Origin: Eledone cirrhosa
Taxonomy: Eukaryota
Length of the DNA: 64,000 bases
Assembly (NCBI GenBank): GCA_964016885.1
Contig: OZ024764.1
Coordinates: 14,384,001-14,448,000, forward strand
Direction of reading: 5' to 3'
This document shows, in pieces, positions 33-43,353 of the stretch. Numbering within the stretch: position 1 is the stretch's first letter; each line of letters starts with the position of its first letter. Below the pieces are notes generated by a model. The model was not told the origin of the DNA. It was given only the letters and a program-made list of their open reading frames with translations, and did not search any database. Made by a program: the position numbers and the translations under genes.

Positions 33-188
33 GACGTGTTGATCGTGTGGTGTTGGTGGCCGTGGTGTTGGGGTAGAGGTCATGTGGTGGACATGGTGGA
101 GGTGGTGTTGACGTGTTGATCGTGTGGTGTTGGTGGCCGTGGTGTTGGGGTAGAGGTCATGTGGTGGACATGGTGGAGGTGGTGTTGA
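33..188. repeat. 77-bp GT-rich tandem duplication (2 copies)
   Basis: gacgtgttgatcgtgtgg...ggtggtgtt at 33 and again at 110. Confidence 0.85.
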
Positions 189-1928: not shown

Positions 1929-4900
1929 CATCCTGTCATATATACAGACACAGTGTGTCTAGGACTACATTATCTAATGTGTCCTGTCTTATATACAGAC
2001 ACAGTGTACCTAGGACTACATTATCTAATGTGTCCTGTCTTATATACAGACACAGTCTATCTAGGACTACATTATCTAATGTGTCCTGTCTTATATACAG
2101 ACACAGTGTATCTAGGACTACATTATCTAATGTCTCCTGTCTTATATACAGACACAGTGTATCTAGGACTACATTATCTAATGTGTCCTGTCTTATATAC
2201 AGACACAGTGTGTCTAGGACTACATTATCTAATGTGTCCTGTCTTATATACAGACACAGTGTACCTAGGACTACATTATCTAATGTGTCCTGTCTTATAT
2301 ACAGACACAGTCTATCTAGGACTACATTATCTAATGTGTCCTGTCTTATATACAGACACAGTGTACCTAGGACTACATTATCTAATGTGTCCTGTCTTAT
2401 ATACAGACACAGTGTATCTAGGACTACATTATCTAATGTCTCCTGTCTTATATACAGACACAGTGTATCTAGGACTACATTATCTAATGTGTCCTGTCTT
2501 ATATACAGACACAGTGTATCTAGGACTACATTATCTAATGTGTCCTGTCTTATATACAGACACAGTGTACCTAGGACTACATTATCTAATGTCTCCTGTC
2601 TTATATACAGACACAGTGTATCTAGGACTACATTATCTAATGTCTCCTGTCTTATATACAGACACAGTGTATCTAGGACTACATTATCTAATGTGTCCTG
2701 TCTTATATACAGACACAGTGTATCTAGGACTACATTATCTAATGTGTCCTGTCTTATATACAGACACAGTGTCTCTAGGACTACATTATCTAATGTGTCA
2801 TGTCTTATATACAGACACAGTCTACCTAGGACTACATTATCTAATGTGTCCTGTCTTATATACAGACACAGTGTACCTAGGACTACATTATCTAATGTGT
2901 CCTGTCTTATATACAGACACAGTCTATCTAGGACTACATTATCTAATGTGTCCTGTCTTATATACAGACACAGTGTACCTAGGACTACATTATCTAATGT
3001 GTCCTGTCTTATATACAGACACAGTGTATCTAGGACTACATTATCTAATGTCTCCTGTCTTATATACAGACACAGTGTATCTAGGACTACATTATCTAAT
3101 GTGTCCTGTCTTATATACAGACACAGTGTATCTAGGACTACATTATCTAATGTGTCCTGTCTTATATACAGACACAGTGTACCTAGGACTACATTATCTA
3201 ATGTGTCCTGTCTTATATACAGACACAGTCTACCTAGGACTACATTATCTAATGTGTCCTGTCTTATATACAGACACAGTGTACCTAGGACTACATTATC
3301 TAATGTGTCCTGTCTTATATACAGACACAGTGTACCTAGGACTACATTATCTAATGTGTCCTGTCTTATATACAGACACAGTCTACCTAGGACTACATTA
3401 TCTAATGTGTCCTGTCTTATATACAGACACAGTGTATCTAGGACTACATTATCTAATGTGTCCTGTCTTATATACAGACACAGTGTATCTAGGACTACAT
3501 TATCTAATGTGTCCTGTCTTATATACAGACACAGTGTACCTAGGACTACATTATCTAATGTGTCCTGTCTTATATACAGACACAGTCTATCTAGGACTAC
3601 ATTATCTAATGTGTCCTGTCTTATATACAGACACAGTGTACCTAGGACTACATTATCTAATGTGTCCTGTCTTATATACAGACACAGTGTATCTAGGACT
3701 ACATTATCTAATGTCTCCTGTCTTATATACAGACACAGTGTATCTAGGACTACATTATCTAATGTGTCCTGTCTTATATACAGACACAGTGTATCTAGGA
3801 CTACATTATCTAATGTGTCCTGTCTTATATACAGACACAGTGTACCTAGGACTACATTATCTAATGTGTCCTGTCTTATATACAGACACAGTCTACCTAG
3901 GACTACATTATCTAATGTGTCCTGTCTTATATACAGACACAGTGTACCTAGGACTACATTATCTAATGTGTCCTGTCTTATATACAGACACAGTGTACCT
4001 AGGACTACATTATCTAATGTGTCCTGTCTTATATACAGACACAGTCTACCTAGGACTACATTATCTAATGTGTCCTGTCTTATATACAGACACAGTGTAT
4101 CTAGGACTACATTATCTAATGTGTCCTGTCTTATATACAGACACAGTGTATCTAGGACTACATTATCTAATGTGTCCTGTCTTATATACAGACACAGTGT
4201 ACCTAGGACTGCATTATCTAATGTGTCCTGTCTTATATACAGACACAGTGTACCTAGGACTACATTATCTAATGTGTCCTGTCTTATATACAGACACAGT
4301 GTATCTAGGATTACATTATCTAATGTGTCATGTCTTATATACAGACACAGTGTATCTAGGACTACATTATCTAATGTGTCCTGTCTTATATACAGACACA
4401 GTGTATCTAGGACTACATTATCTAATGTGTCCTGTCTTATATACAGACACAGTGTACCTAGGACTACATTATCTAATGTGTCCTGTCATATATACAGACA
4501 CAGTGTATCTAGGACTACATTATCTAATGTGTCCTGTCATATATACAGACACAGTGTATCTAGGACTACATTATCTAATGTGTCCTGTCTTATATACAGA
4601 CACAGTGTATCTAGGACTACATTATCTAATGTGTCCTGTCTTATATACAGACACAGTGTATCTAGGACTACATTATCTAATGTGTCCTGTCATATATACA
4701 GACACAGTGTATCTAGGACTACATTATCTAATGTGTCCTGTCTTATATACAGACACAGTGTATCTAGGACTACATTATCTAATGTGTCCTGTCTTATATA
4801 CAGACACAGTGTACCTAGGACTACATTATCTAATGTCTCCTGTCTTATATACAGACACAGTGTATCTAGGACTACATTATCTAATGTGTCCTGTCTTATA

Positions 4901-6462
4901 TACAGACACAGTGTATCTAGGACTACATTATCTAATGTGTCCTGTCTTATATACAGACACAGTCTATCTAGGACTACATTATCTAATGTGTCCTGTCTTA
5001 TATACAGACACAGTGTATCTAGGACTACATTGTCTAATGTCTTGTCTTACATACAGACACAGTCTACCTAGGACTACACTATCTAATGTGTCTTGTCTTA
5101 TATACAGACACAGTGTATCTAGGACTACATTATCTAATGTGTCCTGTCTTATATACAGACACAGTGTATCTAGGACTACATTATCTAATGTGTCCTGTCT
5201 TATATACAGACACAGTGTATCTAGGACTACATTATCTAATGTCCTGTCTTATATACAGACACAGTGTATCTAGGACTACATTATCTAATGTCCTGTCTTA
5301 TAGACGGACACAGTGTATCTAGGACTACATTATTTAATGTGTCCTGTCTTATATACAGACACAGTGTACCTAGGACTACATTATCTAATGTGTCTTGTAT
5401 ACAGACACAGTGTATCTAGGACTACATTATCTAATGTGTCCTGTCTTATATACAGACACAGTATATCTAGGACTACATTATCTAATGTGTCCTGTCTTAT
5501 ATACAGACACAGTGTACCTAGGACTACATTATCTAATGTGTCCTGTCTTATATACAGAGACAGTGTACCTAGGACTACATTATCTAATGTGTCCTGTCTT
5601 ATATACAGACACAGTGTATCTAGGACTACATTATCTAATGTGTCCTGTCTTATATACAGACACAGTGTACCTAGGACTACATTATCTAATGTGTCCTGTC
5701 TTATATACAGACACAGTGTACCTAGGACTACATTATCTAATGTGTCCTGTCTTATATACAGACACAGTGTACCTAGGACTACACTATCTAATGTGTCTTG
5801 TCTTATATACAGACACAGTGTATCTAGGACTACATTATCTAATGTGTCCTGTCTTATATACAGACACAGTGTACCTAGGACTACATTATCTAATGTGTCC
5901 TGTCTTATATACAGACACAGTATATCTTGGACTACATTATCTAATGTGTCCTGTCTTATATACAGACACAGTGTACCTAGGACTACATTATCTAATGTGT
6001 CCTGTCTTATATACAGACACAGTGTACCTAGGACTACATTATCTAATGTGTCCTGTCTTATATACAGACACAGTGTACCTAGGACTACACTATCTAATGT
6101 GTCTTGTCTTATATACAGACACAGTGTATCTAGGACTACATTATCTAATGTGTCCTGTCTTATATAGACACAGTGTACCTAGGACTACATTATCTAATGT
6201 GTCCTGTCTTATATACAGACACAGTATATCTTGGACTACATTATCTAATGTGTCCTGTCTTATATACAGACACAGTGTACCTAGGACTACATTATCTAAT
6301 GTGTCCTGTCTTATATACAGACACAGTGTATCTAGGACTACATTATCTAATGTGTCCTGTCTTATATACAGACACAGTGTACCTAGGACTACATTATCTA
6401 ATGTGTCCTGTCTTATATACAGACACAGTGTATCTAGGACTATATCATTTAATGTGTCCTTC
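1929..6462. repeat. 51-bp satellite array I (about 89 monomers)
   Basis: Monomer cctgtcttatatacagacacagtgtatctaggactacattatctaatgtgt; 17-aa periodic ORFs. Confidence 0.98.
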
Positions 6463-6682
6463 CTTGAGAGAGAGAGTAGGTGATTCAATGAATTATTGGT
6501 GGTAGCACCAAAACAAGCACTTGATGCTCGAGCAGAGTGTATTTAGTTTTTTATTGTGTTAGGAAGGGCATCCAGCTATAGAAAGCTTGCCAAATGAGGG
6601 GTTAGGATGATCTTTCAGTTTGTGCCAAAAGACATAGCTTCTCCTCTGCACTTGATAATTGTTTCTATGTTAGGCACAAGGC

Positions 6683-7110
6683 CATTTCATTTCATTTCAT
6701 TTGAGTTTGAGTCCATGCTCAGGCCAAGTCGAAGACTCCACCCTCAGAGTCTGGTGTGGTTGCCAGGTTGGATTCTCTGTTTAATTTTGACATGTGTAGG
6801 AGCGAGTTTGAGTCAGTTTGTGCTCGTTGTGTATATCCTGGGAGATGGGGTTCATCTCTAATGGTGCTTAAGTATCTATCCAGTTGCAATTTGAATGATT
6901 CCACACTGCATCCTGATAGATTTCTGACATGTACCGGAATGGAGTTGAATAGTTGTGCCCCTTGAACCAACAGACTTGACTCTCGCAGGGTTTTTGCTGC
7001 CTGGCCAGCCTTTTTGTTGATTGGTGGTAGCTGGCAGCGTCTTCTGTGGCGCAGCGAGTGGTAGGTTTTGATACCAAAGTTCGACACCTTTTGCTCTATC
7101 AAATGTATAT
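6683..7110 (-). mobile_element. 3' fragment of a CR1/L2-group non-LTR retrotransposon (ORF2 C-terminus plus (AAATG)n tail)
   Basis: Minus-strand peptide SLLVQGAQLFNSIPVHVRNLSGCSVESFKLQLDRYLSTIRDEP resembles CR1/L2-group ORF2 ends; (catt t)-type pentamer tail at 6683-6702. Confidence 0.7.
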
Positions 7111-7174
7111 AATTCGGTATCGCTCAAATCTTCTTTCTATTGAGTACATCTTCAAGGTTTTGAGTCTTTGCCAG

Positions 7175-7305
7175 TAAATACCCAGTACATTACTGGTACT
7201 TTATTTTATCGACCCCGTAAGGATGAAGGGCAAAGTTAACCTCAACGGGATTTGATCTCAGACCATAATGGGACGTAACTATGCTAGAAAGCATGGCGTC
7301 CAGAC
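7175..7305 (-). mobile_element. SINE family B copy (partial)
   Basis: Reverse complement matches the full copy at 48290-48478. Confidence 0.8.
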
Positions 7306-7389
7306 TGCGCGTAAGAGGAATACACACATCCCTGGCCTATCTGGGAGGTCAGTAACCTCGCTACAGTTCTAATTAGGTCTGTATAAATT

Positions 7390-7530
7390 AGCCCCTGGTA
7401 AAGGTGTTGGACTTAGATTCATAATATCGTAAGTTCAAATCCTCAACTGGGTAGCATGTTGTGTTCTCGAGCAAAACACTTAATTTCATTTTGCTCCAGT
7501 ATACTCAGCTGAAAATGAGTAGCAGCAATA
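7390..7530 (+). mobile_element. tRNA-derived CORE-like SINE (family A) head and core
   Basis: B box gttcaaatcc followed by CORE-like tgtgttctcgagcaaaacacttaatttc...ctcagctgaaaatgagta. Confidence 0.7.
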
Positions 7531-8727
7531 GCTGGGGGTTTAACCCTGCAATGGACTGGCGTCCTGTCCAGGGGGAAGTCTTTTATTCTTAGTCGCTTCA
7601 CACCATGAAACCAGGATAAGTACCAGCAATAGCTGGGGGTTTAACTTTGCAATGGACTGGCGTCCTGTCCAGGGGGAAGTCTTTTATTCTTAGTCGCTTC
7701 ACACCATGAAACCAGGATAAGTACCAGCAATAGCTGGGGGTTTAACCCTGCAATGGACTGGCGTCCTGTCCAGTGGGAAGTCTTTTATTCTTAGTCGCTT
7801 CACACCATGAAACCAGGATAAGTACCGGCAATAGCTGGGGGTTTAACTTTGCAATGGACTGGCGTCCTGTCCAGGGGGAAGTCTTTTATTCTTAGTCGCT
7901 TCACACCATGAAACCAGGATAAGTACCAGTAATAGCTGGGGGTTTAACTTTGCAATGGACTGGCGTCCTGTCCAGGGGGAAGTCTTTTATTCTTAGTCGC
8001 TTCACACCATGAAACCAGGATAAGTACCAGCAATAGCTGGGGGTTTAACTTTGCAATGGACTGGTGTCCTGTCCAGGGGGAAGTCTTTTATTCTTAGTCG
8101 CTTCACACCATGAAACCAGGATAAGTACCAGCAATAGCTGGGGGTTTAACCCTGCAATGGACTGGCGTCCTGTCCAGGAGGAAGTCTTTTATTCTTAGTC
8201 GCTTCACACCATGAAACCAGGATAAGTACCAGCAATAGCTGGGGGTTTAACCCTGCAATGGACTGGCGCCCTGTCCAGGGGAAGTCTTTTATTCTTAGTC
8301 GCTTCACACCATGAAACCAGGATAAGTACCAGTAATAGCTGGGGGTTTAACTTTGCAATGGACTGGCGTCCTGTCCAGGGGGAAGTCTTTTATTCTTAGT
8401 CGCTTCACACCATGAAACCAGGATAAGTACCAGCAATAGCTGGGGGTTTAACTTTGCAATGGACTGGCGTCCTGTCCAGGGGGCCGTCTTGTAGTCTGTC
8501 GCTTCACGCCATCAAACCGGGATAAGTACCAGCAATAGCTGGGGGTTTAACCCTGCAATGGACTGGTGTCCTGTCCAGGGGGAAGTCTTGTACTCTGTCG
8601 CTTCACGCCATGAAACCGGGATAAGTACCAGCAATAGCTGGGGGTTTAACCCTGCAATGGACTGGTGTCCTGTCCAGGGGGAAGTCTTGTACTCTGTCGC
8701 TTCACGCCATGAAACCGGGATAAGTAT
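7515..8727. repeat. 101-bp minisatellite (about 12 copies) continuing the 3' part of the adjacent SINE
   Basis: gctgggggtttaac recurs at 7531, 7632, 7733 and onward; the array starts directly after the SINE core. Confidence 0.92.
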
Positions 8728-8804
8728 TGGCCTGACAAGACTTCAGCTTACGGCAGACCCTAGAAACTCGTCCAAACCTTGCTAGCAGGGAAAGTGGACA
8801 GCAA

Positions 8805-8992
8805 ATAATAATAATAATTGTTTCTACTTTAGGCACAAGGCCAGCAATTACCCAGTGCATTACTGGTACTTTATTTTATCGACCCCGTAAGGATGAAAGG
8901 CAAAGTCAACCTCGGCAGGATTTGAACTCAGATCGTAAAGGGACGTAACTATGCTGGAAAGCATGGCGTCAAACCCTCTACCGATACTGCCA
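8805..8992 (-). mobile_element. SINE family B copy with (TTA)n tail
   Basis: Reverse complement matches 48300-48478 including A-box (tggcagtatcggtagag) and B-box (gttcaaatcc) regions. Confidence 0.85.
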
Positions 8993-9159
8993 TAATAATA
9001 ATGATGATGATGATGATGATGATGATATACATACCCCCCCCCCCCCTCCCCCATACCCCTCAGGTATTTAATAGGTGGAGATAGTTGATGGCTTTGTTTA
9101 CAGACACAAACCAGACCTGCTGAAGATTGAATATATGCAGGAAACTATGTATCTGTCTA

Positions 9160-9600
<441 letters not shown>

Positions 9601-9663
9601 CATACATACACACCCAGCTATTCAGTTGGTTGGTGTTTTTGCTGCGTAAAAATGTTATACATT

Positions 9664-10670
9664 CCACTACCACCACTACTACTACCACCACCACTACTAC
9701 TACCACCACCACTACTACCACCACCACTACTACTACCACCACCACTACTACTACCACCACCACTACTACCACTACCACCACCATCACTACTACCACCACC
9801 ACTACTACCACCACCACTACTACTACCACCACCACTACTACAACCAACACCATTACTACCACTACCATTACTAGCACCACCACTACCGCCACCACTACCA
9901 TCAACACTACTACAACCACTACTACAACTACCAATACTACTACAACCACCACCACCACTACTACCATTACTAGCACCACTACTATCATAACTAGCACCAT
10001 TACCACCACCACCACTACTACCATAACTAGCACCACTACCACCACACTACTACCATGAACACCACCACCACTACCATCAACTCTACTACAACCACTACTA
10101 CAACTACCAATACTACTACAACCACCACCACCACTACTACCATTACTAGCACCACTACTATCATAACTAGCACCATTACCACCACCACCACTACTACCAT
10201 AACTAGCACCACTACCACCACACTACTACCATGAACACCACCACCACTACCATCAACTCTACTACAACCACTACTACAACTACCAATACTACTACAACCA
10301 CCACCACCACTACTACCATTACTAGCACCACTACTATCATAACTAGCACCATTACCACCACCACCACTACTACCATAACTAGCACCACTACCACCACACT
10401 ACTACCATGAACACCACCACCACTACCATCAACTCTACTACAACCACTACTACAACTACCAATACTACTACAACCACCACCACCACTACTACCATTACTA
10501 GCACCACTACTATCATAACTAGCACCATTACCACCACCACTACTACCATTACTAGCACCATTACCACCACCACTACTACCATAACTAGCACCACTACCAC
10601 CACACTACTACCATGAACACCACCACCACTACCACCAACTCTACTACAACCATCACACCACCACCACCAG
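9664..10670. repeat. (ACC/ACT)n triplet repeat with 176-bp higher-order unit
   Basis: Near-identical ORF ends at 10036, 10212 and 10388 (period 176). Confidence 0.92.
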
Positions 10671-10762
10671 ACATAACAAGACAATGAACCAGTGTAAAGT
10701 ATGTAGCATATACCTTGCCAAATCTACAACAACAACATCAGCAACACTGAACGTAATATTAG

Positions 10763-10802
<40 letters not shown>

Positions 10803-10928
10803 GTAAGTGAGTGAAGGAGGGGGAGAAAGAGAACGAAAATGCCATGTTTAAAGCATTAGTTAGTAAACAAAAGATATTCCAGCTGTGACCATCCTGCCTA
10901 TTATTATTCAGACACAATCTGAATATTG

Positions 10929-13900
10929 TCACAGTATACCTAGGACTACATTATCTAATGTCTCCTGTCTTATATACAGACACAGTCCACCTAGGACTAC
11001 ATTATCTAATGTGTCCTGTCTTATATACAGACACAGTGTACCTAGGACTACATTATCTAATGTGTCCTGTCTTATCTACAGACACAGTGTATCTAGGACT
11101 ACATTATCTAATGTGTCCTGTCTTATATACAGACACAGTGTATCTAGGACTACATTATCTAATGTGTCCTGTCTTATATACAGACAGTGTATCTAGGACT
11201 ACATTATCTAATGTGTCCTGTCTTATATACAGACACAGTGTACCTAGGACTACATTATCTAATGTGTCCTGTCTTATATACAGACACAGTGTATCTAGGA
11301 CTACATTATCTAATGTGTCCTGTCTTATATACAGACACAGTGTATCTAGGACTACATTATCTAATGTGTCCTGTCTTATATACAGACACAGTGTCTCTAG
11401 GACTACATTATCTAATGTGTCCTGTCTTATATACAGACACAGTGTACCTAGGACTACATTATCTAATGTGTCCTGTCTTATATACAGACACAGTGTATCT
11501 AGGACTACATTATCTAATGTGTCCTGTCTTATATACAGACACAGTGTATCTAGGACTACATTATCTAATGTGTCCTGTCTTATATACAGACACAGTGTAC
11601 CTAGGACTACATTATCTAATGTGTCCTGTCTTATATACAGACACAGTGTACCTAGGACTACATTATCTAATGTGTCCTGTCTTATATACAGACACAGTGT
11701 ATCTAGGACTACATTATCTAATGTGTCCTGTCTTATATACAGACACAGTGTACCTAGGACTACATTATCTAATGTGTCCTGTCTTATATACAGACACAGT
11801 GTATCTAGGACTACATTATCTAATGTGTCCTGTCTTATATACAGACACAGTGTACCTAGGACTACATTATCTAATGTGTCCTGTCTTATATACAGACACA
11901 GTGTATCTAGGACTACATTATCTAATGTGTCCTGTCTTATATACAGACACAGTGTATCTAGGACTACATTATCTAATGTGTCCTGTCTTATATACAGACA
12001 CAGTGTATCTAGGACTACACTTATCTAATGTGTCCTGTCTTATATACAGACACAGTGTATCTAGGACTACATTATCTAATGTGTCCTGTCTTATATACAG
12101 ACACAGTGTATCTAGGACTACATTATCTAATGTGTCCTGTCTTATATACAGACACAGTCTATCTAGGACTACATTATCTAATGTGTCCTGTCTTATATAC
12201 AGACACAGTGTATCTAGGACTACATTATCTAATGTGTCCTGTCTTATATACAGACACAGTCTATCTAGGACTACATTATCTAATGTGTCCTGTCTTATAT
12301 ACAGACACAGTCTATCTAGGACTACATTATCTAATGTGTCCTGTCTTATATACAGACACAGTCTACCTAGGACTACATTATCTAATGTGTCCTGTCTTAT
12401 ATACAGACACAGTCTATCTAGGACTACATTATCTAATGTGTCCTGTCTTATATACAGACACAGTCTATCTAGGACTACATTATCTAATGTGTCCTGTCTT
12501 ATATACAGACACAGTCTATCTAGGACTACATTATCTAATGTGTCCTGTCTTATATACAGACACAGTCTATCTAGGACTACATTATCTAATGTGTCCTGTC
12601 TTATATACAGACACAGTCTACCTAGGACTACATTATCTAATGTGTCCTGTCTTATATACAGACACAGTCTATCTAGGACTACATTATCTAATGTGTCCTG
12701 TCTTATATACAGACACAGTCTACCTAGGACTACATTATCTAATGTGTCCTGTCTTATATACAGACACAGTGTATCTAGGACTACATATCTAATGTGTCCT
12801 GTCTTATATACAGACACAGTGTATCTAGGACTACATTATCTAATGTGTCCTGTCTTATATACAGACACAGTCTACCTAGGATTACATTATCTAATGTGTC
12901 CTGTCTTATATACAGACACAGTCTATCTAGGACTACATTATCTAATGTGTCCTGTCTTATATACAGACACAGTCTATCTAGGACTACATTATCTAATGTG
13001 TCCTGTCTTATATACAGACACAGTGTATCTAGGACTACAATATCTAATGTGTCCTGTCTTATATACAGACACAGTATATCTAGGACTACATTATCTAATG
13101 TGTCCTGTCTTATATACAGACACAGTCTACCTAGGACTACATTATCTAATGTGTCCTGTCTTATATACAGACACAGTGTATCTAGGACTACATTATCTAA
13201 TGTGTCCTGTCTTATATACAGACACAGTCTACCTAGGACTACATTATCTAATGTGTCCTGTCTTATATACAGACACAGTCTACCTAGGACTACACTATCT
13301 AATGTGTCCTGTCTTATATACAGACACAGTGTATCTAGGACTACATTATCTAATGTGTCTTGTCTTATATACAGACACAGTATATCTAGGACTACACTAT
13401 CTAATGTGTCCTGTCTTATATACAGACACAGTGTATCTAAGACTACATTATCTAATGTGTCCTGTCTTATATACAGACACAGTCTACCTAGGACTACATT
13501 ATCTAATGTGTCCTGTCTTATATACAGACACAGTCTACCTAGGACTACACTATCTAATGTGTCCTGTCTTATATACAGACACAGTGTATCTAGGACTACA
13601 TTATCTAATGTGTCCTGTCTTATATACAGACACAGTGTATCTAGGACTACATTATCTAATGTGTCCTGTCTTATATACAGACACAGTCTACCTAGGACTA
13701 CATTATCTAATGTGTCCTGTCTTATATACAGACACAGTCTACCTAGGACTACACTATCTAATGTGTCCTGTCTTATATACAGACACAGTGTATCTAGGAC
13801 TACATTATCTAATGTGTCCTGTCTTATATACAGACACAGTGTATCTAGGACTACATTATCTAATGTGTCCTGTCTTATATACAGACACAGTGTATCTAGG

Positions 13901-16900
13901 ACTACATTATCTAATGTGTCCTGTCTTATATACAGACACAGTGTATCTAGGACTACATTATCTAATGTGTCCTGTCTTATATACAGACACAGTCTACCTA
14001 GGACTACATTATCTAATGTGTCCTGTCTTATATACAGACACAGTGTATCTAGGACTACATTATCTAATGTGTCCTGTCTTATATACAGACACAGTATATC
14101 TAGGACTACAATATCTAATGTGTCCTGTCTTATATACAGACACAGTATATCTAGGACTACAATATCTAATGTGTCCTGTCTTATATACAGACACAGTGTA
14201 TCTAGGACTACATTATCTAATGTGTCCTGTCTTATATACAGACACAGTCTACCTAGGACTACATTATCTAATGTGTCCTGTCTTATATACAGACACAGTC
14301 TACCTAGGACTACACTATCTAATGTGTCCTGTCTTATATACAGACACAGTGTATCTAGGACTACATTATCTAATGTGTCCTGTCTTATATACAGACACAG
14401 TGTATCTAGGACTACATTATCTAATGTGTCCTGTCTTATATACAGACACAGTGTATCTAGGACTACATTATCTAATGTGTCCTGTCTTATATACAGACAC
14501 AGTGTATCTAGGACTACATTATCTAATGTGTCCTGTCTTATATACAGACACAGTCTACCTAGGACTACATTATCTAATGTGTCCTGTCTTATATACAGAC
14601 ACAGTGTATCTAGGACTACATTATCTAATGTGTCCTGTCTTATATACAGACACAGTCTACCTAGGACTACATTATCTAATGTGTCCTGTCTTATATACAG
14701 ACACAGTGTATCTAGGACTACATTATCTAATGTGTCCTGTCTTATATACAGACACAGTGTATCTAGGACTACATTATCTAATGTGTCCTGTCTTATATAC
14801 AGACACAGTGTATCTAGGACTACATTATCTAATGTGTCCTGTCTTATATACAGACACAGTGTATCTAGGACTACATTATCTAATGTGTCCTGTCTTATAT
14901 ACAGACACAGTGTACCTAGGACTACATTATCTAATGTGTCCTGTCTTATATACAGACACAGTGTATCTAGGACTACATTATCTAATGTGTCCTGTCTTAT
15001 ATACAGACACAGTGTATCTAGGACTACATTATCTAATGTGTCCTGTCTTATATACAGACACAGTGTATCTAGGACTACATTATCTAATGTGTCCTGTCTT
15101 ATATACAGACACAGTGTATCTAGGACTACATTATCTAATGTGTCCTGTCTTATATACAGACACAGTGTATCTAGGACTACATTATCTAATGTGTCCTGTC
15201 TTATATACAGACACAGTGTATCTAGGACTACATTATCTAATGTGTCCTGTCTTATATACAGACACAGTGTATCTAGGACTACATTATCTAATGTGTCCTG
15301 TCTTATATACAGACACAGTGTATCTAGGACTACATTATCTAATGTGTCCTGTCTTATATACAGACACAGTGTATCTAGGACTACATTATCTAATGTGTCC
15401 TGTCTTATATACAGACACAGTGTATCTAGGACTACATTATCTAATGTGTCCTGTCTTATATACAGACACAGTGTATCTAGGACTACATTATCTAATGTGT
15501 CCTGTCTTATATACAGACACAGTGTACCTAGGACTACATTATCTAATGTGTCCTGTCTTATATACAGACACAGTGTATCTAGGACTACATTATCTAATGT
15601 GTCCTGTCTTATATACAGACACAGTGTATCTAGGACTACATTATCTAATGTGTCCTGTCTTATATACAGACACAGTGTATCTAGGACTACATTATCTAAT
15701 GTGTCCTGTCTTATATACAGACACAGTGTATCTAGGACTACATTATCTAATGTGTCCTGTCTTATATACAGACACAGTGTATCTAGGACTACATTATCTA
15801 ATGTGTCCTGTCTTATATACAGACACAGTGTATCTAGGACTACATTATCTAATGTGTCCTGTCTTATATACAGACACAGTATATCTAGGACTACATTATC
15901 TAATGTGTCATGTCTTATATACAGACACAGTGTATCTAGGACTACATTATCTAATGTGTCCTGTCTTATATACAGACACAGTGTATCTAGGACTACACTA
16001 TCTAATGTGTCCTGTCTTATATACAGACACAGTCTACCTAGGACTACATTATCTAATGTGTCCTGTCTTATATACAGACACAGTCTATCTAGGACTACAT
16101 TGTCTAATGTGTCCTGTCTTATATACAGACACAGTATATCTAGGACTACATTATCTAATGTGTCCTGTCTTATATACAGACACAGTGTACCTAGGACTAC
16201 ATTATCTAATGTGTCCTGTCTTATATACAGACACAGTGTACCTAGGACTACATTATCTAATGTGTCCTGTCTTATATACAGACACAGTGTATCTAGGACT
16301 ACACTATCTAATGTGTCCTGTCTTATATACAGACACAGTCTACCTAGGACTACATTATCTAATGTGTCCTGTCTTATATACAGACACAGTCTATCTAGGA
16401 CTACATTGTCTAATGTGTCCTGTCTTATATACAGACACAGTGTATCTAGGACTACATTATCTAATGTGTCCTGTCTTATATACAGACACAGTATATCTAG
16501 GACTACATTATCTAATGTGTCCTGTCTTATATACAGACACAGTCTATCTAGGACTACATTATCTAATGTGTCCTGTCTTATATACAGACACAGTGTATCT
16601 AGGACTACATTATCTAATGTGTCCTGTCTTATATACAGACACAGTCTACCTAGGACTACATTATCTAATGTGTCCTGTCTTATATACAGACACAGTCTAT
16701 CTAGGACTACATTGTCTAATGTGTCCTGTCTTATATACAGACACAGTATATCTAGGACTACATTATCTAATGTGTCCTGTCTTATATACAGACACAGTCT
16801 ACCTAGGACTACATTATCTAATGTGTCCTGTCTTATATACAGACACAGTATATCTAGGACTACATTGTCTAATGTGTCCTGTCTTATATACAGACACAGT

Positions 16901-19900
16901 ATATCTAGGACTACATTATCTAATGTGTCCTGTCATATATACAGACACAGTATATCTAGGACTACATTATCTAATGTGTCCTGTCTTATATACAGACACA
17001 GTGTATCTAGGACTACATTATCTAATGTGTCCTGTCTTATATACAGACACAGTGTATCTAGGACTACATTATCTAATGTGTCCTGTCTTATATACAGACA
17101 CAGTCTATCTAGGACTACATTGTCTAATGTGTCCTGTCTTATATACAGACACAGTCTACCTAGGACTACATTATCTAATGTGTCCTGTCTTATATACAGA
17201 CACAGTGTATCTAGGACTACACTATCTAATGTGTCCTGTCTTATATACAGACACAGTGTACCTAGGACTACATTATCTAATGTGTCCTGTCTTATATACA
17301 GACACAGTGTATCTAGGACTACACTATCTAATGTGTCCTGTTTTATATACAGACACAGTTTACCTAGGACTACATTATCTAATGTGTCCTGTCTTATATA
17401 CAGACACAGTCTATCTAGGACTACATTGTCTAATGTGTCCTGTCTTATATACAGACACAGTCTACCTAGGACTACATTATCTAATGTGTCCTGTCTTATA
17501 TACAGACACAGTGTATCTAGGACTACATTATCTAATGTGTCCTGTCTTATATACAGACACAGTGTACCTAGGACTACATTATCTAATGTGTCCTGTCTTA
17601 TATACAGACACAGTGTATCTAGGACTACATTATCTAATGTGTCCTGTCTTATATACAGACACAGTGTATCTAGGACTACATTATCTAATGTGTCCTGTCT
17701 TATATACAGACACAGTGTATCTAGGACTACATTATCTAATGTGTCCTGTCTTATATACAGACACAGTGTATCTAGGACTACATTATCTAATGTGTCCTGT
17801 CTTATATACAGACACAGTGTATCTAGGACTACATTATCTAATGTGTCCTGTCTTATATACAGACACAGTGTATCTAGGACTACATTATCTAATGTGTCCT
17901 GTCTTATATACAGACACAGTATATCTAGGACTACATTATCTAATGTGTCCTGTCTTATATACAGACACAGTGTATCTAGGACTACATTATCTAATGTGTC
18001 CTGTCTTATATACAGACACAGTGTATCTAGGACTACACTATCTAATGTGTCCTGTCTTATATACAGACACAGTCTACCTAGGACTACATTATCTAATGTG
18101 TCCTGTCTTATATACAGACACAGTCTATCTAGGACTACATTGTCTAATGTGTCCTGTCTTATATACAGACACAGTATATCTAGGACTACATTATCTAATG
18201 TGTCCTGTCTTATATACAGACACAGTGTACCTAGGACTACATTATCTAATGTGTCCTGTCTTATATACAGACACAGTGTACCTAGGACTACATTATCTAA
18301 TGTGTCCTGTCTTATATACAGACACAGTGTATCTAGGACTACACTATCTAATGTGTCCTGTCTTATATACAGACACAGTCTACCTAGGACTACATTATCT
18401 AATGTGTCCTGTCTTATATACAGACACAGTCTATCTAGGACTACATTGTCTAATGTGTCCTGTCTTATATACAGACACAGTGTATCTAGGACTACATTAT
18501 CTAATGTGTCCTGTCTTATATACAGACACAGTATATCTAGGACTACATTATCTAATGTGTCCTGTCTTATATACAGACACAGTCTATCTAGGACTACATT
18601 ATCTAATGTGTCCTGTCTTATATACAGACACAGTGTATCTAGGACTACATTATCTAATGTGTCCTGTCTTATATACAGACACAGTCTACCTAGGACTACA
18701 TTATCTAATGTGTCCTGTCTTATATACAGACACAGTCTATCTAGGACTACATTGTCTAATGTGTCCTGTCTTATATACAGACACAGTATATCTAGGACTA
18801 CATTATCTAATGTGTCCTGTCTTATATACAGACACAGTCTACCTAGGACTACATTATCTAATGTGTCCTGTCTTATATACAGACACAGTATATCTAGGAC
18901 TACATTGTCTAATGTGTCCTGTCTTATATACAGACACAGTATATCTAGGACTACATTATCTAATGTGTCCTGTCATATATACAGACACAGTATATCTAGG
19001 ACTACATTATCTAATGTGTCCTGTCTTATATACAGACACAGTGTATCTAGGACTACATTATCTAATGTGTCCTGTCTTATATACAGACACAGTGTATCTA
19101 GGACTACATTATCTAATGTGTCCTGTCTTATATACAGACACAGTCTATCTAGGACTACATTGTCTAATGTGTCCTGTCTTATATACAGACACAGTCTACC
19201 TAGGACTACATTATCTAATGTGTCCTGTCTTATATACAGACACAGTGTATCTAGGACTACACTATCTAATGTGTCCTGTCTTATATACAGACACAGTGTA
19301 CCTAGGACTACATTATCTAATGTGTCCTGTCTTATATACAGACACAGTGTATCTAGGACTACACTATCTAATGTGTCCTGTTTTATATACAGACACAGTT
19401 TACCTAGGACTACATTATCTAATGTGTCCTGTCTTATATACAGACACAGTCTATCTAGGACTACATTGTCTGTGTCCTGTCTTATATACAGACACAGTCT
19501 ACCTAGGACTACATTATCTAATGTGTCCTGTCTTATATACAGACACAGTGTATCTAGGACTACACTATCTAATGTGTCCTGTCTTATATACAGACACAGT
19601 GTACCTAGGACTACATTATCTAATGTGTCCTGTCTTATATACAGACACAGTGTATCTAGGACTACATTATCTAATGTGTCCTGTCTTATATACAGACACA
19701 GTATATCTAGGACTACATTATCTAATGTGTCCTGTCTTATATACAGACACAGTGTATCTAGGACTACATTATCTAATGTGTCCTGTCTTATATACAGACA
19801 CAGTATATCTAGGACTACATTATCTAATGTGTCCTGTCTTATATACAGACACAGTGTATCTAGGACTACATTATCTAATGTGTCCTGTCTTATATACAGA

Positions 19901-20597
19901 CACAGTATATCTAGGACTACATTATCTAATGTGTCCTGTCATATATACAGACACAGTGTATCTAGGACTACACTATCTAATGTGTCCTGTCTTATATACA
20001 GACACAGTCTACCTAGGACTACATTATCTAATGTGTCCTGTCTTATATACAGACACAGTCTATCTAGGACTACATTATCTAATGTGTCCTGTCTTATATA
20101 CAGACACAGTGTACCTAGGACTACATTATCTAATGTGTCCTGTCTTATATACAGACACAGTGTACCTAGGACTACATTATCTAATGTGTCCTGTCTTATA
20201 TACAGACACAGTGTACCTAGGACTACATTATCTAATGTGTCCTGTCTTATATACAGACACAGTCTATCTAGGACTACATTATCTAATGTGTCCTGTCTTA
20301 TATACAGACACAGTTTACCTAGGACTACATTATCTAATGTGTCCTGTCTTATATACAGACACAGTGTACCTAGGACTACATTATCTAATGTGTCCTGTCT
20401 TATATACAGACACAGTCTACCTAGGACTACATTATCTAATGTGTCCTGTCTTATATACAGACACAGTGTACCTAGGACTACATTATCTAATGTGTCCTGT
20501 CTTATATACAGACACAGTGTACCTAGGACTACATTATCTAATGTGTCCTGTCTTATATACAGACACAGTGTACCTAGGACTACATTATCTAATGTCC
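10929..20597. repeat. 51-bp satellite array II (about 190 monomers), same orientation as array I
   Basis: Same monomer as 1929-6462. Confidence 0.98.
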
Positions 20598-22739: not shown

Positions 22740-22837
<98 letters not shown>

Positions 22838-22931
22838 AGAAGTTGTATTAAATTTGTTGGAATTCTGACAAACATAAATGTTTATAACTGATTTAGAGCA
22901 CTCAACAGTTACTGGAGTAAATATTCCATTT

Positions 22932-23048
22932 AAAATCCCGCCGAGGTTGACTTTGCCTTTCATCCTTACGGGGGTCGATAAAATAAAAGTACCAGTAATA
23001 CACTGGGGTAATTGCTGGCCTTGTGCCAAAAAGTAGAAACAATTATTA
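22932..23048 (+). mobile_element. 5'-truncated SINE family B inserted in the H1 element
   Basis: aaatcccgccgagg...ccaaaagtagaaacaatta; absent from the homologous position at about 36330. Confidence 0.85.
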
Positions 23049-23081
23049 AATAAATGGCAACTATATTTATAAAACCTTATT

Positions 23082-23148
23082 TATTTTATTATATATATAT
23101 TTCAACAGCAACCAAGCAAACCTTGGTGCGCTTTCATCAGATAAAATA
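23082..23148 (-). ncRNA. Type I hammerhead ribozyme motif
   Basis: Minus: UAUUUUAU-CUGAUGA-aagcGCACCAAG guuug CUUGGUuGCuguu-GAA-AUAUAUAUAU-A-AUAAAAUA; perfect 8-bp stem I, palindromic stem III, AUA site. Confidence 0.72.
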
Positions 23149-23235
23149 CAAAGTTTGTTTTATAAATAAAGACATACCCATGAAGATTCAACCTTATCGG
23201 TCGGAAATTTGCTGGATAGCGAATATATATATATA

Positions 23236-28408: not shown

Positions 28409-28540
28409 CCTGATGATTTCCTTCGAATGAAACAGTTCTAGTCTTGTAGAAGCCATTTCTATATTAAATTTGATATTCACACTCTGCGAATGTATTGAGT
28501 ACCTTACTGTGGTCACCCCCGATTGAACCTGGGACTTACA
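28409..28540 (+). mobile_element. Penelope-like pLTR remnant (family H3) starting at hammerhead core boxes
   Basis: CTGATGA (28410) tttccttcgaat GAAAC (28429); the rest is homologous to 29238-29290 and to the reverse complement of 60157-60270. Confidence 0.55.
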
Positions 28541-28790: not shown

Positions 28791-29175
<385 letters not shown>

Positions 29176-29179
29176 AGAG

Positions 29180-29385
29180 AGAAATGACTTCTACAGATCT
29201 AGAACTGTTTCACTTGTATGAAATCATCAGGACATTCCTGATGATTTCATATGAATGAAACAGTTCTAGTCCTGTAGAAGTCATTTCTATATATAATAAA
29301 TCTCTTTACTCTACCAACATTTTCGGTTGCTTTTTTAACTATGGTCACCTCCGGGGCATACATCCGAAATCCACCTACAATTAAG
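29180..29385. mobile_element. Fold-back element family H3 with hammerhead core boxes in both arms
   Basis: Arms about 29180-29232 / 29236-29288; CTGATGA 29238, GAAAC 29257. Confidence 0.65.
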
Positions 29386-30539: not shown

Positions 30540-30881
30540 CATCATCATCATCATTTCATTTTACGTCCACTTTTCCCTGCTTGCAAGGGTGGGACGGGAA
30601 CCGATTCTGGCTTGATTTCTACAGCTGGATGCCCTTCCTAACGCCAACCTCATTTACAGTGAGTGCTGGGTGCTTTTTTGCCGTGGCACCTCCACGACCA
30701 CTTTGCAGTGGAATGATATGGACCCCAGTCCTCTATCATCTCATTTCTACAGCTGAGTAAACTGGAGCAATGTGAAATAAAGTGCCTTGCTCAAAGAAAC
30801 AACACATCACCCGGTCTGAGAATTGAACTCACAACCTTTTGATTGCAAGCCCAATGCTCTAACCACTAAGCCATGTGCCTC
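30540..30881 (-). mobile_element. Full SINE family A
   Basis: Near-identical to 23236-23577. Confidence 0.85.
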
Positions 30882-35955: not shown

Positions 35956-36148
35956 ACGAAGGAAGTGTGGTAAGGAACCAGGTGGACCATAACGCACCAA
36001 AGTACTCAATACTTAGGGTAGTAGAGTGGGTAATAGGAACGAGTAGGACCCCAACGGCTGAGCTCAAGCCGTTTCGACGGCTAATTCTGTCCAGAATTAG
36101 CCGTCGAAACGGCTTGAGCTCAGCCGTCGGGGTCCTACTCGTTCCTAT
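35956..36148. mobile_element. Fold-back element family H4, copy 2
   Basis: Arms about 36033-36089 / 36092-36148; flanked by TA runs. Confidence 0.7.
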
Positions 36149-36181
36149 ATATATATAATTTAACGTCCATTTTCCATGGTA

Positions 36182-36238
<57 letters not shown>

Positions 36239-36371
36239 GGAAGGGATATTTAATTTGTTGGAAATTCAACAAATATAAATGTTTATAACTGATTCAGAGC
36301 ACTCTACAGGTTTCTGGAGAAAATATTCAATACTATTAAAGGAATGGAAACTATATTTATAAAACCATATT

Positions 36372-36433
36372 TATTCTATTATATATATTTCAAGGGTACC
36401 AAAAACTTTGGTACGCTATCATCAGATAAAATA
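36372..36433 (-). ncRNA. Type I hammerhead ribozyme motif (mirror copy)
   Basis: Reverse complement of 36566-36627. Confidence 0.7.
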
Positions 36434-36565
36434 CAAAGAGTGTTTTATAAATTTTGACATAGCCAAGGAAAACATACCTTATCAGTTGAATATACGACCC
36501 AACAAAAATTAAACCGATAAGGTATGTTTTCCTTGGCTATGTCAAAATTTATAAAACACTCTTTG

Positions 36566-36627
36566 TATTTTATCTGATGATAGCGTACCAAAGTTTTTGG
36601 TACCCTTGAAATATATATAATAGAATA
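36566..36627 (+). ncRNA. Type I hammerhead ribozyme motif
   Basis: UAUUUUAU-CUGAUGA-uagcGUACCAAA guu UUUGGUACccuu-GAA-AUAUAUAU-A-AUAGAAUA; 8-bp stem I with one GU pair; predicted cut after 36619. Confidence 0.72.
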
Positions 36628-36667
36628 AATATGGTTTTATAAATATAGTTTCCATTTCTTTAATATC

Positions 36668-36732
<65 letters not shown>

Positions 36733-43086: not shown

Positions 43087-43353
43087 ACAATTAACAACAA
43101 AGAGCGCTTAGAACATAGGTATATCTTTAATTGCTAACAGTGTTTCGTCCACACTAGAAGTGGGACTCTTCAGAGCTTTATGCTCTGAAGAGTCCCACTT
43201 CTAGTGTGGACGAAACACTGTTAGCAATTAAAGATATACCTATGTTCTAATCGCTCTTTGTTGTTAATTGTTTTACGGCTCTGTCCTCTGACATTGAGCT
43301 AACCATATACTGCCTATTTGATAAGTGGAGTGTTACACACTCCCAATTCTCTC

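What the first reader, a model, noticed from the sequence alone, without database searches (positions are those of the whole stretch)
36235..36676. H1 hammerhead with an (AU)n stem III and compensatory changes between two copies
Copies at 36566-36627 and 23082-23148 keep CUGAUGA, GAAA and an 8-bp stem I while stem II covaries (GUACCAAA/UUUGGUAC versus GCACCAAG/CUUGGUuGC). Stem III and the cut site are themselves a TA repeat (8 versus 10 nt), which is palindromic, dimer-capable and identical to the microsatellite the element sits in. Inference: selection acts on the fold, and the ribozyme cut site may be linked to TA targeting.
Basis: partly seen in the sequence, partly recalled or inferred. 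Interest (0 to 1): 0.72.

Follow-up and report, generated by a model that had tools for sequence, protein, structure and literature searches.

The report
Hammerhead of a TA-targeting Penelope retrotransposon
This is a short mirror-image leftover of an abundant Penelope-type jumping gene that sits in TA repeats and carries a predicted self-cutting RNA fold kept intact across its subfamilies, but its copies almost never start or end at the predicted cut site, so the cut likely does not aim the insertion.

Summary
The hammerhead is real: type I core at 36566-36627(+), mirrored at 36372-36433(-) in a 169-nt inverted repeat, plus a copy at 23082-23148(-). It lies in the terminal repeat (pLTR) of a Hydra-clade Penelope-like retrotransposon. 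The same motif follows an RT/GIY-YIG frame in 8 of 10 loci examined, and thousands of copies occur in the genome. Stem II covaries between subfamilies (5 two-sided changes A vs B, 1 plus a bulge A vs C) around a C·C mismatch kept in all, so selection on the fold is supported. The 10-nt TA run of copy 2 looks like private slippage; 8 nt is the norm. The link between cut site and TA targeting fails. Copies end in (TA)n about 54 and 144 nt downstream (2065 and 704 pattern matches). Only 16 end at stem III (control 11), and 12 start at the cut (control 38). Hammerheads, palindromic stem III and (TA)n insertion are published for this clade. The scan noted two-armed, two-fixed-end Penelope footprints on other DNA of this genome. 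Verdict: new family of a known kind; cleavage untested.

The parts
36235..36491 (-). Long arm: 5'-truncated pLTR of a Hydra-clade Penelope-like element, from -111 to about +144 relative to the predicted cut
   Evidence: the +55..+144 part lies upstream of the ORF start (ATG at +199, TATA-like word at +145) in L060
36372..36433 (-). Type I hammerhead, left arm (identical to the right-arm one)
36235..36325 (-). About 90-nt 'tail' between the two preferred 3' end points (+54 and +144), present on one arm only
36492..36507 (.). 16-nt spacer at the head-to-head junction of the two arms
36508..36676 (+). Short arm: pLTR from -112 to about +54, running into (AT)n
36566..36627 (+). Type I hammerhead: stem I 36566-73/36620-27, core CUGAUGA 36574-80, stem II 36581-36607 (U·U at 10.1/11.1, C·C mismatch at pair 4), GAA 36608-10, palindromic stem III 36611-18, predicted cut after A36619 (AUA triplet)
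36183..36234 (.). (TA)26 target microsatellite, left flank
36673..36729 (.). (AT)n target microsatellite, right flank
22835..23223 (-). Single-arm pLTR copy of subfamily C, starting next to a TA run and ending at the +144-equivalent site in (CA)n then (TA)n
23082..23148 (-). Subfamily C hammerhead with private decay (basal 3' strand UGUU instead of CCUU; AT run 10 instead of 8)
22930..23041 (-). 112-nt insertion of another repeat (SINE-like; label recalled, not tested) inside copy 2
   Evidence: the same sequence abuts other loci

Best explanation
The stretch is a two-armed, 5'-truncated insertion of the terminal repeat of a Hydra-clade Penelope-like retrotransposon in a (TA)n tract, likely made when the element's GIY-YIG endonuclease nicked both target strands and its reverse transcriptase copied uncut RNA from two internal start points (+54 and +144). 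Both cDNAs would have stopped near -110 to -125 and been joined head to head. The hammerhead is under structural selection in the active lineages and is predicted to work as a weak, dimer-dependent ribozyme through its palindromic stem III. It likely has no part in choosing or priming the target; targeting is likely protein-directed. This particular copy is likely inert, because a read-through transcript folds into a 169-bp hairpin that buries both hammerheads. Shown: sequence, family, linkage to the ORF, covariation, end positions, flanks. Inferred: nicking, priming, RNA state, dimer, cleavage.
For: ORF link: the same hammerhead lies on the coding strand downstream of an RT/GIY-YIG frame in 8 of 10 long-frame loci, upstream in a ninth and absent from the tenth. 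Distance CRH to hammerhead was 987-1332 nt in 6 loci and 2135 in one. Clade motifs: RWR, DKT, YRDD, CxCX5C, VVYxC/YVGxT, CxxC and CxH, matching the Hydra definition (PMC8557442 section 11) and, by eye, Hydra-1_Obim. 979 homologues at E<=1e-10 among 7997 candidates scored, best hits 33-46% identical, none with an informative name. Ends: 52 of 57 hammerhead-spanning hits in 40 loci end in two clusters, +47..62 (25) and +139..155 (27); genome patterns give 2065 and 704. Inverted pairs: 36 of 43 have one long and one short arm. Arms of a pair share their source: 1.3 vs 11.5 discordant common alleles, and 21 of 37 pairs vs 11.7% of random pairs share a rare allele. Cut site not enriched: 16 vs control 11 at 3' ends; 12 vs control 38 at 5' starts; no pile-up among 30 ORF-start copies; 4795 exact read-throughs. 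Covariation: 97.3% of 656 cells paired, and 4 of 6 scored stem II pairs have two-sided changes; majority pair table. The published in vitro work on a lizard Penelope found two internal RT start sites, extension of both strands, and unprocessed RNA as the main template (PMC11167929). Whole-insertion hairpin -264 kcal/mol.
Against: No cleavage or RNA data exist here. None of the 10 long-frame loci holds an unbroken ORF (longest stop-to-stop 531 aa). Pfam gave no significant match for 4 ORF pieces and Rfam no hammerhead match. No tree with published Hydra proteins was built. The covariation rests on few independent events: the count of two-sided pairs (4) was reached by 143 of 500 shuffles, and B and C rows were picked by patterns that fix some stem letters. 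45 copies have a long TA run directly before the cut site; 24 of 30 inspected lack the upstream hammerhead by my reading. These include stem III letters, so they fit microhomology on uncut RNA, but a small share of cut templates is not excluded. A fold-back of one cDNA, or later conversion between arms, would also explain matching arms. The unit (about 3.4-3.7 kb, estimated) is longer than the '<3 kb' typical of Hydra.
Confidence: 0.85

Rival explanations
1. One reading: self-cleavage leaves an RNA ending in (AU)4A that anneals to the nicked (TA)n target and primes insertion.
For: The predicted 5' product does end in an AU repeat. 16 copies run from stem III straight into long TA; most of the 16 do not resume the element afterwards.
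Against: 16 vs 4795 read-throughs. An unrelated TA microhomology 22 nt downstream gives 11. The main ends lie 54 and 144 nt past the cut. 0 of 25 listed Hydra hammerheads have an AU-repeat stem III although 26 of 27 listed families insert in (TA)n.
Confidence: 0.04
2. The fold is kept as an RNA pairing or protein-binding scaffold rather than for cutting: two pLTR copies of one transcript, or two RNAs from one locus, pair through the AU palindrome and feed a dimeric RT that makes the two arms.
For: Integrated copies come from uncut RNA. The stem III 'loop' letters are kept, and the only recurrent change (A to G) still pairs as G·U in a dimer. The C·C mismatch is kept while its neighbours covary. 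One long plus one short arm in 36 of 43 pairs.
Against: The catalytic core is also fully kept, which fits cutting. No pair mixes subfamilies A, B and C (the one A/B label is a B/B pair misclassified). A-to-G is common in TA runs anyway (inference).
Confidence: 0.12
3. The stem II covariation comes from DNA-level template switching in a quasi-palindrome, not from selection on RNA.
For: Hairpin-perfecting mutagenesis is a known process (recalled), and few independent events are seen.
Against: The C·C mismatch inside the stem survives in every subfamily seen (126/141 A, 28/30 B, 31/35 C, 4/4 D), and C gains a bulge. Template switching would tend to erase both. The core and stem I are also kept while loop II and the flanks diverge.
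Confidence: 0.06
4. A MITE, microRNA precursor or non-LTR retrozyme.
For: Long inverted repeat; Rfam MIR169_2 hit of 56 bits at 36447-36552; thousands of short non-coding copies.
Against: The arms are unequal, and the junction varies between loci. The sequence continues into a Penelope ORF in long copies. No tandem array of hammerhead units. The MIR169 hit follows from the near-perfect hairpin (inference).
Confidence: 0.05

Closest known systems
Hydra clade of Penelope-like elements, including Hydra-1_Obim (Craig et al. 2021, PMC8557442; passages, section 11 whole, supplement part 2 of 59 and supplement search hits read)
   Same: Single RT plus C-terminal GIY-YIG frame with DKT, CxCX5C, CxxC and CxH; canonical type I hammerhead near the 3' end; palindromic stem III; U·U at 10.1/11.1 is common in that table; (TA)n insertion; inverted 5'-truncated copies; optional tail.
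   Different: A different family: the hammerhead shares no stem with Hydra-1_Obim. Stem III starts A-U-A-U (AUA triplet) where all listed Hydra motifs start A-C. Long stem II with a fixed C·C mismatch; predicted extended stem I; 3' UTR about 1.1 kb; tail about 90 nt rather than 30-40; RWR for RWK.
Minimal and palindromic PLE hammerheads (Cervera and de la Pena 2014, PMC4209133, parts 1-2 of 4 read; Lunse et al. 2017 seen only as cited in review PMC6765202 passages)
   Same: Type I motif in pLTRs, short palindromic helix III predicted to need a dimer, consensus families with covariation, dual motifs on opposite strands 100-700 bp apart.
   Different: No G10.1-C11.1 in subfamilies A and C (A-U, G·U or U·U); the palindrome is a pure AU repeat; stem I is 8 bp or more.
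Poseidon PAc of Anolis carolinensis (Frangieh et al. 2024, PMC11167929, parts 1-2 of 4 read)
   Same: Two RT start sites that bound the tail; both target strands extended; AT-rich target; uncut RNA as main template; no RNA reads ending at the hammerhead cut.
   Different: Other clade; there the start sites lie inside the ORF start, here in the 5' UTR upstream of the ATG, about 90 nt apart; here the evidence is genomic only.
Metazoan non-LTR retrozymes (bioRxiv 10.64898/2026.07.22.740005, part 1 of 5 read)
   Same: Type I hammerhead related to PLE pLTRs; short non-coding copies.
   Different: No tandem array of hammerhead units; the sequence is the pLTR of a coding element.

Membership tests
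Type I hammerhead ribozyme | CUGANGA and GAAA core around three helices, ends in stem I | tested here: met
   stem I 98% and stem II 95% of cells paired; stem III 2 bp as a monomer
Type I hammerhead ribozyme | NUH cleavage triplet | tested here: met
   AUA at 36617-36619; NUH rule recalled
Type I hammerhead ribozyme | Paired 10.1-11.1, usually G-C | tested here: inconclusive
   window copy U·U; subfamily A: A-U 78, G·U 39, U·U 22 of 141; B: G-C 16, G·U 12 of 30; U·U is frequent in published Hydra motifs
Type I hammerhead ribozyme | Match to an Rfam hammerhead model | tested here: not met
   a library match, not a structural requirement
Type I hammerhead ribozyme | Self-cleavage | not testable with these tools
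   needs an in vitro assay or RNA-end data
Hydra-clade PLE | One ORF, RT followed by C-terminal GIY-YIG | tested here: met
   L060-L062, L068: YRDD precedes VVYxC/YVGxT; about 750 codons, interrupted in every locus seen
Hydra-clade PLE | DKT in place of DKG | tested here: met
   KSDKTNN
Hydra-clade PLE | N-terminal RWK motif | tested here: inconclusive
   RWR at the same place (compared by eye)
Hydra-clade PLE | CxCX5C linker; CxxC and CxH flanking the conserved E and N | tested here: met
   CNCRIKSNC, CKLCIE, CRH
Hydra-clade PLE | No CCHH motif in the endonuclease | tested here: inconclusive
   none seen on reading the translations; no profile alignment made
Hydra-clade PLE | Canonical hammerhead in the pLTR, sense strand | tested here: met
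   8 of 10 loci downstream of the ORF
Hydra-clade PLE | Insertion into (TA)n | tested here: met
   152 of 177 ending arms meet a TA run first; 21 none, 3 CA, 1 GA
Hydra-clade PLE | Phylogenetic placement of the RT | not tested
   published Hydra proteins were only read in the supplement
Naiad PLE | N-terminal GIY-YIG and no canonical hammerhead | tested here: not met
Non-LTR retrozyme | Non-coding tandem units each with a hammerhead | tested here: not met
   linked to an ORF; no array in the window or in the loci read

The most novel reading that the evidence does not exclude
The AU palindrome and the long covarying stem II with its fixed C·C mismatch act as an RNA dimerisation and loading signal, like a retroviral dimer signal, rather than mainly as a cutter. 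Two pLTR copies from one source pair up, and a dimeric Penelope RT primes one at +54 and the other at +144 from opposite target strands, giving the one-long-one-short two-armed insertions. This would give Penelope hammerheads a non-catalytic role and explain their inverted insertions.
Probability: 0.12. Interest if true: 0.7.

Novelty: new member of a known kind. Interest (0 to 1): 0.33.

Why it matters
What Penelope hammerheads do is an open question. This family gives several thousand insertions showing that the copied RNA was uncut at the ribozyme and that two fixed start points about 90 nt apart are used one per arm. That extends an in vitro result from one lizard element to a distant clade. 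It also offers ready natural variants (a covarying stem II around a fixed C·C mismatch; AUAUAUAU versus AUAUGUAU stem III) for testing dimer cleavage. It does not show a new targeting mechanism.

Tried and rejected
Rfam: no hammerhead; MIR169_2 hit rejected as a product of the near-perfect hairpin. Pfam: nothing significant on 4 ORF pieces. Sequencing runs: no RNA holder listed, so no reads were laid. Cut site as 3' junction or 5' start: rejected against controls. Inverted joins within about 7 nt per arm of the cut: 28 loci, with no matched control, so used only as a rough bound. An early hint that a full-length copy began at the cut (L062) did not generalise. The first arm-versus-other identity test (second part) ignored gaps and was uninformative; one search replaced it. 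The 5'-end mapping in the second half was confounded by references that held inverted arms and was discarded. Mixed-subfamily pairs were sought and not found; L004 and L282 differ between arms at a few variant sites only. Lunse et al. 2017 could not be read. Six literature searches listed no paper on an AU-repeat stem III or on this family; subscription papers, Repbase/Dfam and bioRxiv supplements were not searchable, so the family may already be catalogued.

Full report
Observation. The described hammerhead is present at 36566-36627(+) with the predicted cut after A36619, and at 23082-23148(-). The finding's interval is a 169-nt inverted repeat (36323-36491 / 36508-36676, 97%, 16-nt spacer). 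Its left arm runs 88 nt further and holds an identical hammerhead on the minus strand; the five arm differences lie outside the ribozyme. Both flanks are (TA)n. The single-strand MFE is not the hammerhead. A scored dimer with an 8-bp intermolecular stem III is favoured over two monomer hammerheads in all five motifs tried (window copy -23.8 vs -11.2 kcal/mol). Rfam has no hammerhead match.

What it belongs to. The own genome (3.0 Gb) gave 2403 candidates; the 40 scored are 94-100% identical. The host is octopus-like by inference only (recalled SINE look, likeness to Hydra-1_Obim, an earlier scan note). Upstream of one copy lay a GIY-YIG fragment. Searching with it, I took 10 of the 150 listed places, chosen for long open frames. 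Eight carry the same hammerhead on the coding strand downstream of an RT/GIY-YIG frame, one has it upstream, one lacks it. The frame (about 750 codons, interrupted in every locus seen) has RWR, DKT, YRDD, CxCX5C, CxxC and CxH. These are the marks of the Hydra clade (PMC8557442 section 11), whose families carry canonical hammerheads and insert in (TA)n (26 of 27 listed). The published Hydra-1_Obim has a different hammerhead, so this is another family. No tree was built. The sequence past the hammerhead is also the 5' UTR: TATA-like word at +145, ATG at +199.

Covariation. The two window copies represent subfamilies A (4795 exact matches) and C (2904). A third, B, dominates a pattern with 1748 matches that also holds some A and C variants. 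Majority pairs from 141 A, 30 B, 35 C and 4 D motifs, with 9 left unclassified, are. A vs B differ at five stem II pairs, all on both sides (A-U to G-C twice, G-C to A-U, C-G to U-A, A-U to G-C). Ten changes falling as five whole pairs of nine has P = 0.003 before asking for complementarity. A C·C mismatch at pair 4 is kept in all four classes and in most of the unclassified motifs, which include two more stem II types. On a 46-row alignment 97.3% of 656 cells pair, and 0 of 500 shuffles reach that or the covariation score. But 143 of 500 reach the count of four two-sided pairs, and relatedness inflates such tests. B and C rows were picked by patterns that fix some stem letters. Within subfamilies the departures are mostly one-sided, as expected for decaying insertions. 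Copy 2's basal UGUU and 10-nt run are such decay: runs of 8 in 114 of 133 A, 28 of 30 B and 16 of 17 C motifs, with one 10 in B (part of A was selected on an 8-nt pattern). The one recurrent stem III variant is AUAUGUAU (15 of 35 C; also seen in A, B, D), which would still pair in a dimer by G·U. Stem I is predicted to extend by 10 or more pairs in each motif tried, though these flanks are AU-rich.

Cut site versus target. In 40 loci taken in order from the pattern list (the first 40 places or pairs on one contig), 52 of 57 hammerhead-spanning hits end in two clusters, +47..62 and +139..155. Genome-wide junction patterns give 2065 ends at +54 and 704 at +144, against 16 at stem III and 11 at a non-ribozyme TA microhomology near +22. 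Starts at +1 merging with TA number 12, against 38 at +9. Thirty copies with the ORF start show no pile-up at the cut. Against this reading: 45 copies have a long TA run directly before the cut site, most without the upstream hammerhead, and 28 inverted joins fall within a few bases of it. Many keep stem III letters, which needs uncut RNA, but a minor cut route is not excluded. These pattern counts are exact matches with different degeneracy, so only their order of magnitude is meaningful. Of 177 ending arms, 152 meet (TA)n first. None of the 25 distinct Hydra hammerheads in the published table has an AU-repeat stem III, and the pLTR is 74% AT, so the likeness of stem III to the target is plausibly compositional.

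How it likely arose. In 36 of 43 head-to-head pairs one arm carries the tail and the other does not. Arms share a source (37 of 51 pairs scored, B pairs and short arms left out). Many 5' ends fall at -100 to -127 (29 of 58; single reference, so some are alignment stops), near a small hairpin and an initiator-like word (recalled consensus); this may be a transcript start or an RT stop. The pattern fits the lizard Penelope, where RT starts at two internal sites on both nicked strands and uses unprocessed RNA (PMC11167929). A fold-back of one cDNA is not excluded. A transcript through the window copy would form a -264 kcal/mol hairpin, so this copy is likely inert.

Novelty and verdict. Hammerheads in pLTRs, palindromic dimer-type helix III, covarying families and opposite-strand pairs are in PMC4209133. 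(TA)n insertion and inverted truncated copies are in PMC8557442. Six searches listed no description of this family or of an AU-repeat stem III; repeat databases could not be checked. A recent Octopus repeat paper has no 'ribozyme' hit in its main text (PMC13282606 passages). Earlier scan notes report two-armed, two-fixed-end Penelope footprints for other families in this genome; none matched this sequence. Verdict: real, a new member of a known kind; covariation confirmed, targeting link not supported, cleavage untested. Interest 0.33.

Noticed in passing
window 28410-28448(+), 29192-29230(-)/29238-29276(+), 43128-43173(-)/43185-43230(+): Three more hammerhead-like loci of two other families, two of them as head-to-head pairs in TA or GA repeats; likely other Penelope pLTRs.
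   Followed up: no
stem II pair 4 (window 36584 and 36604) and all subfamilies: A C·C mismatch kept while neighbouring pairs covary; a candidate tertiary or protein contact.
   Followed up: partly
L004 and L282 (G000:C1:77981050-77981900): Inverted pairs whose arms differ at recurrent variant sites; weak candidates for two-template insertions.
   Followed up: partly
L022 (about 1500-1900), L111, L090, L154: Copies of different subfamilies lie directly next to each other, suggesting repeated insertion into the same TA tract or into earlier copies.
   Followed up: no
window 35959-36150 and 28821-29020: Another repeat family with a long internal palindrome, flanked by TA; it also abuts many loci of this family.
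   Followed up: no
-100 to -127 from the cut (window about 36491 and 36508; 23223): Cluster of 5' ends near a small hairpin; possible transcript start or RT stop.
   Followed up: partly
window 1931-20595: About 18.7 kb dominated by a 51-nt tandem satellite at 96-97% identity, interrupted by a 101-nt array and simple repeats.
   Followed up: no
window 30816-30873(-): tRNA-like match (31.6 bits), probably the head of a SINE.
   Followed up: no
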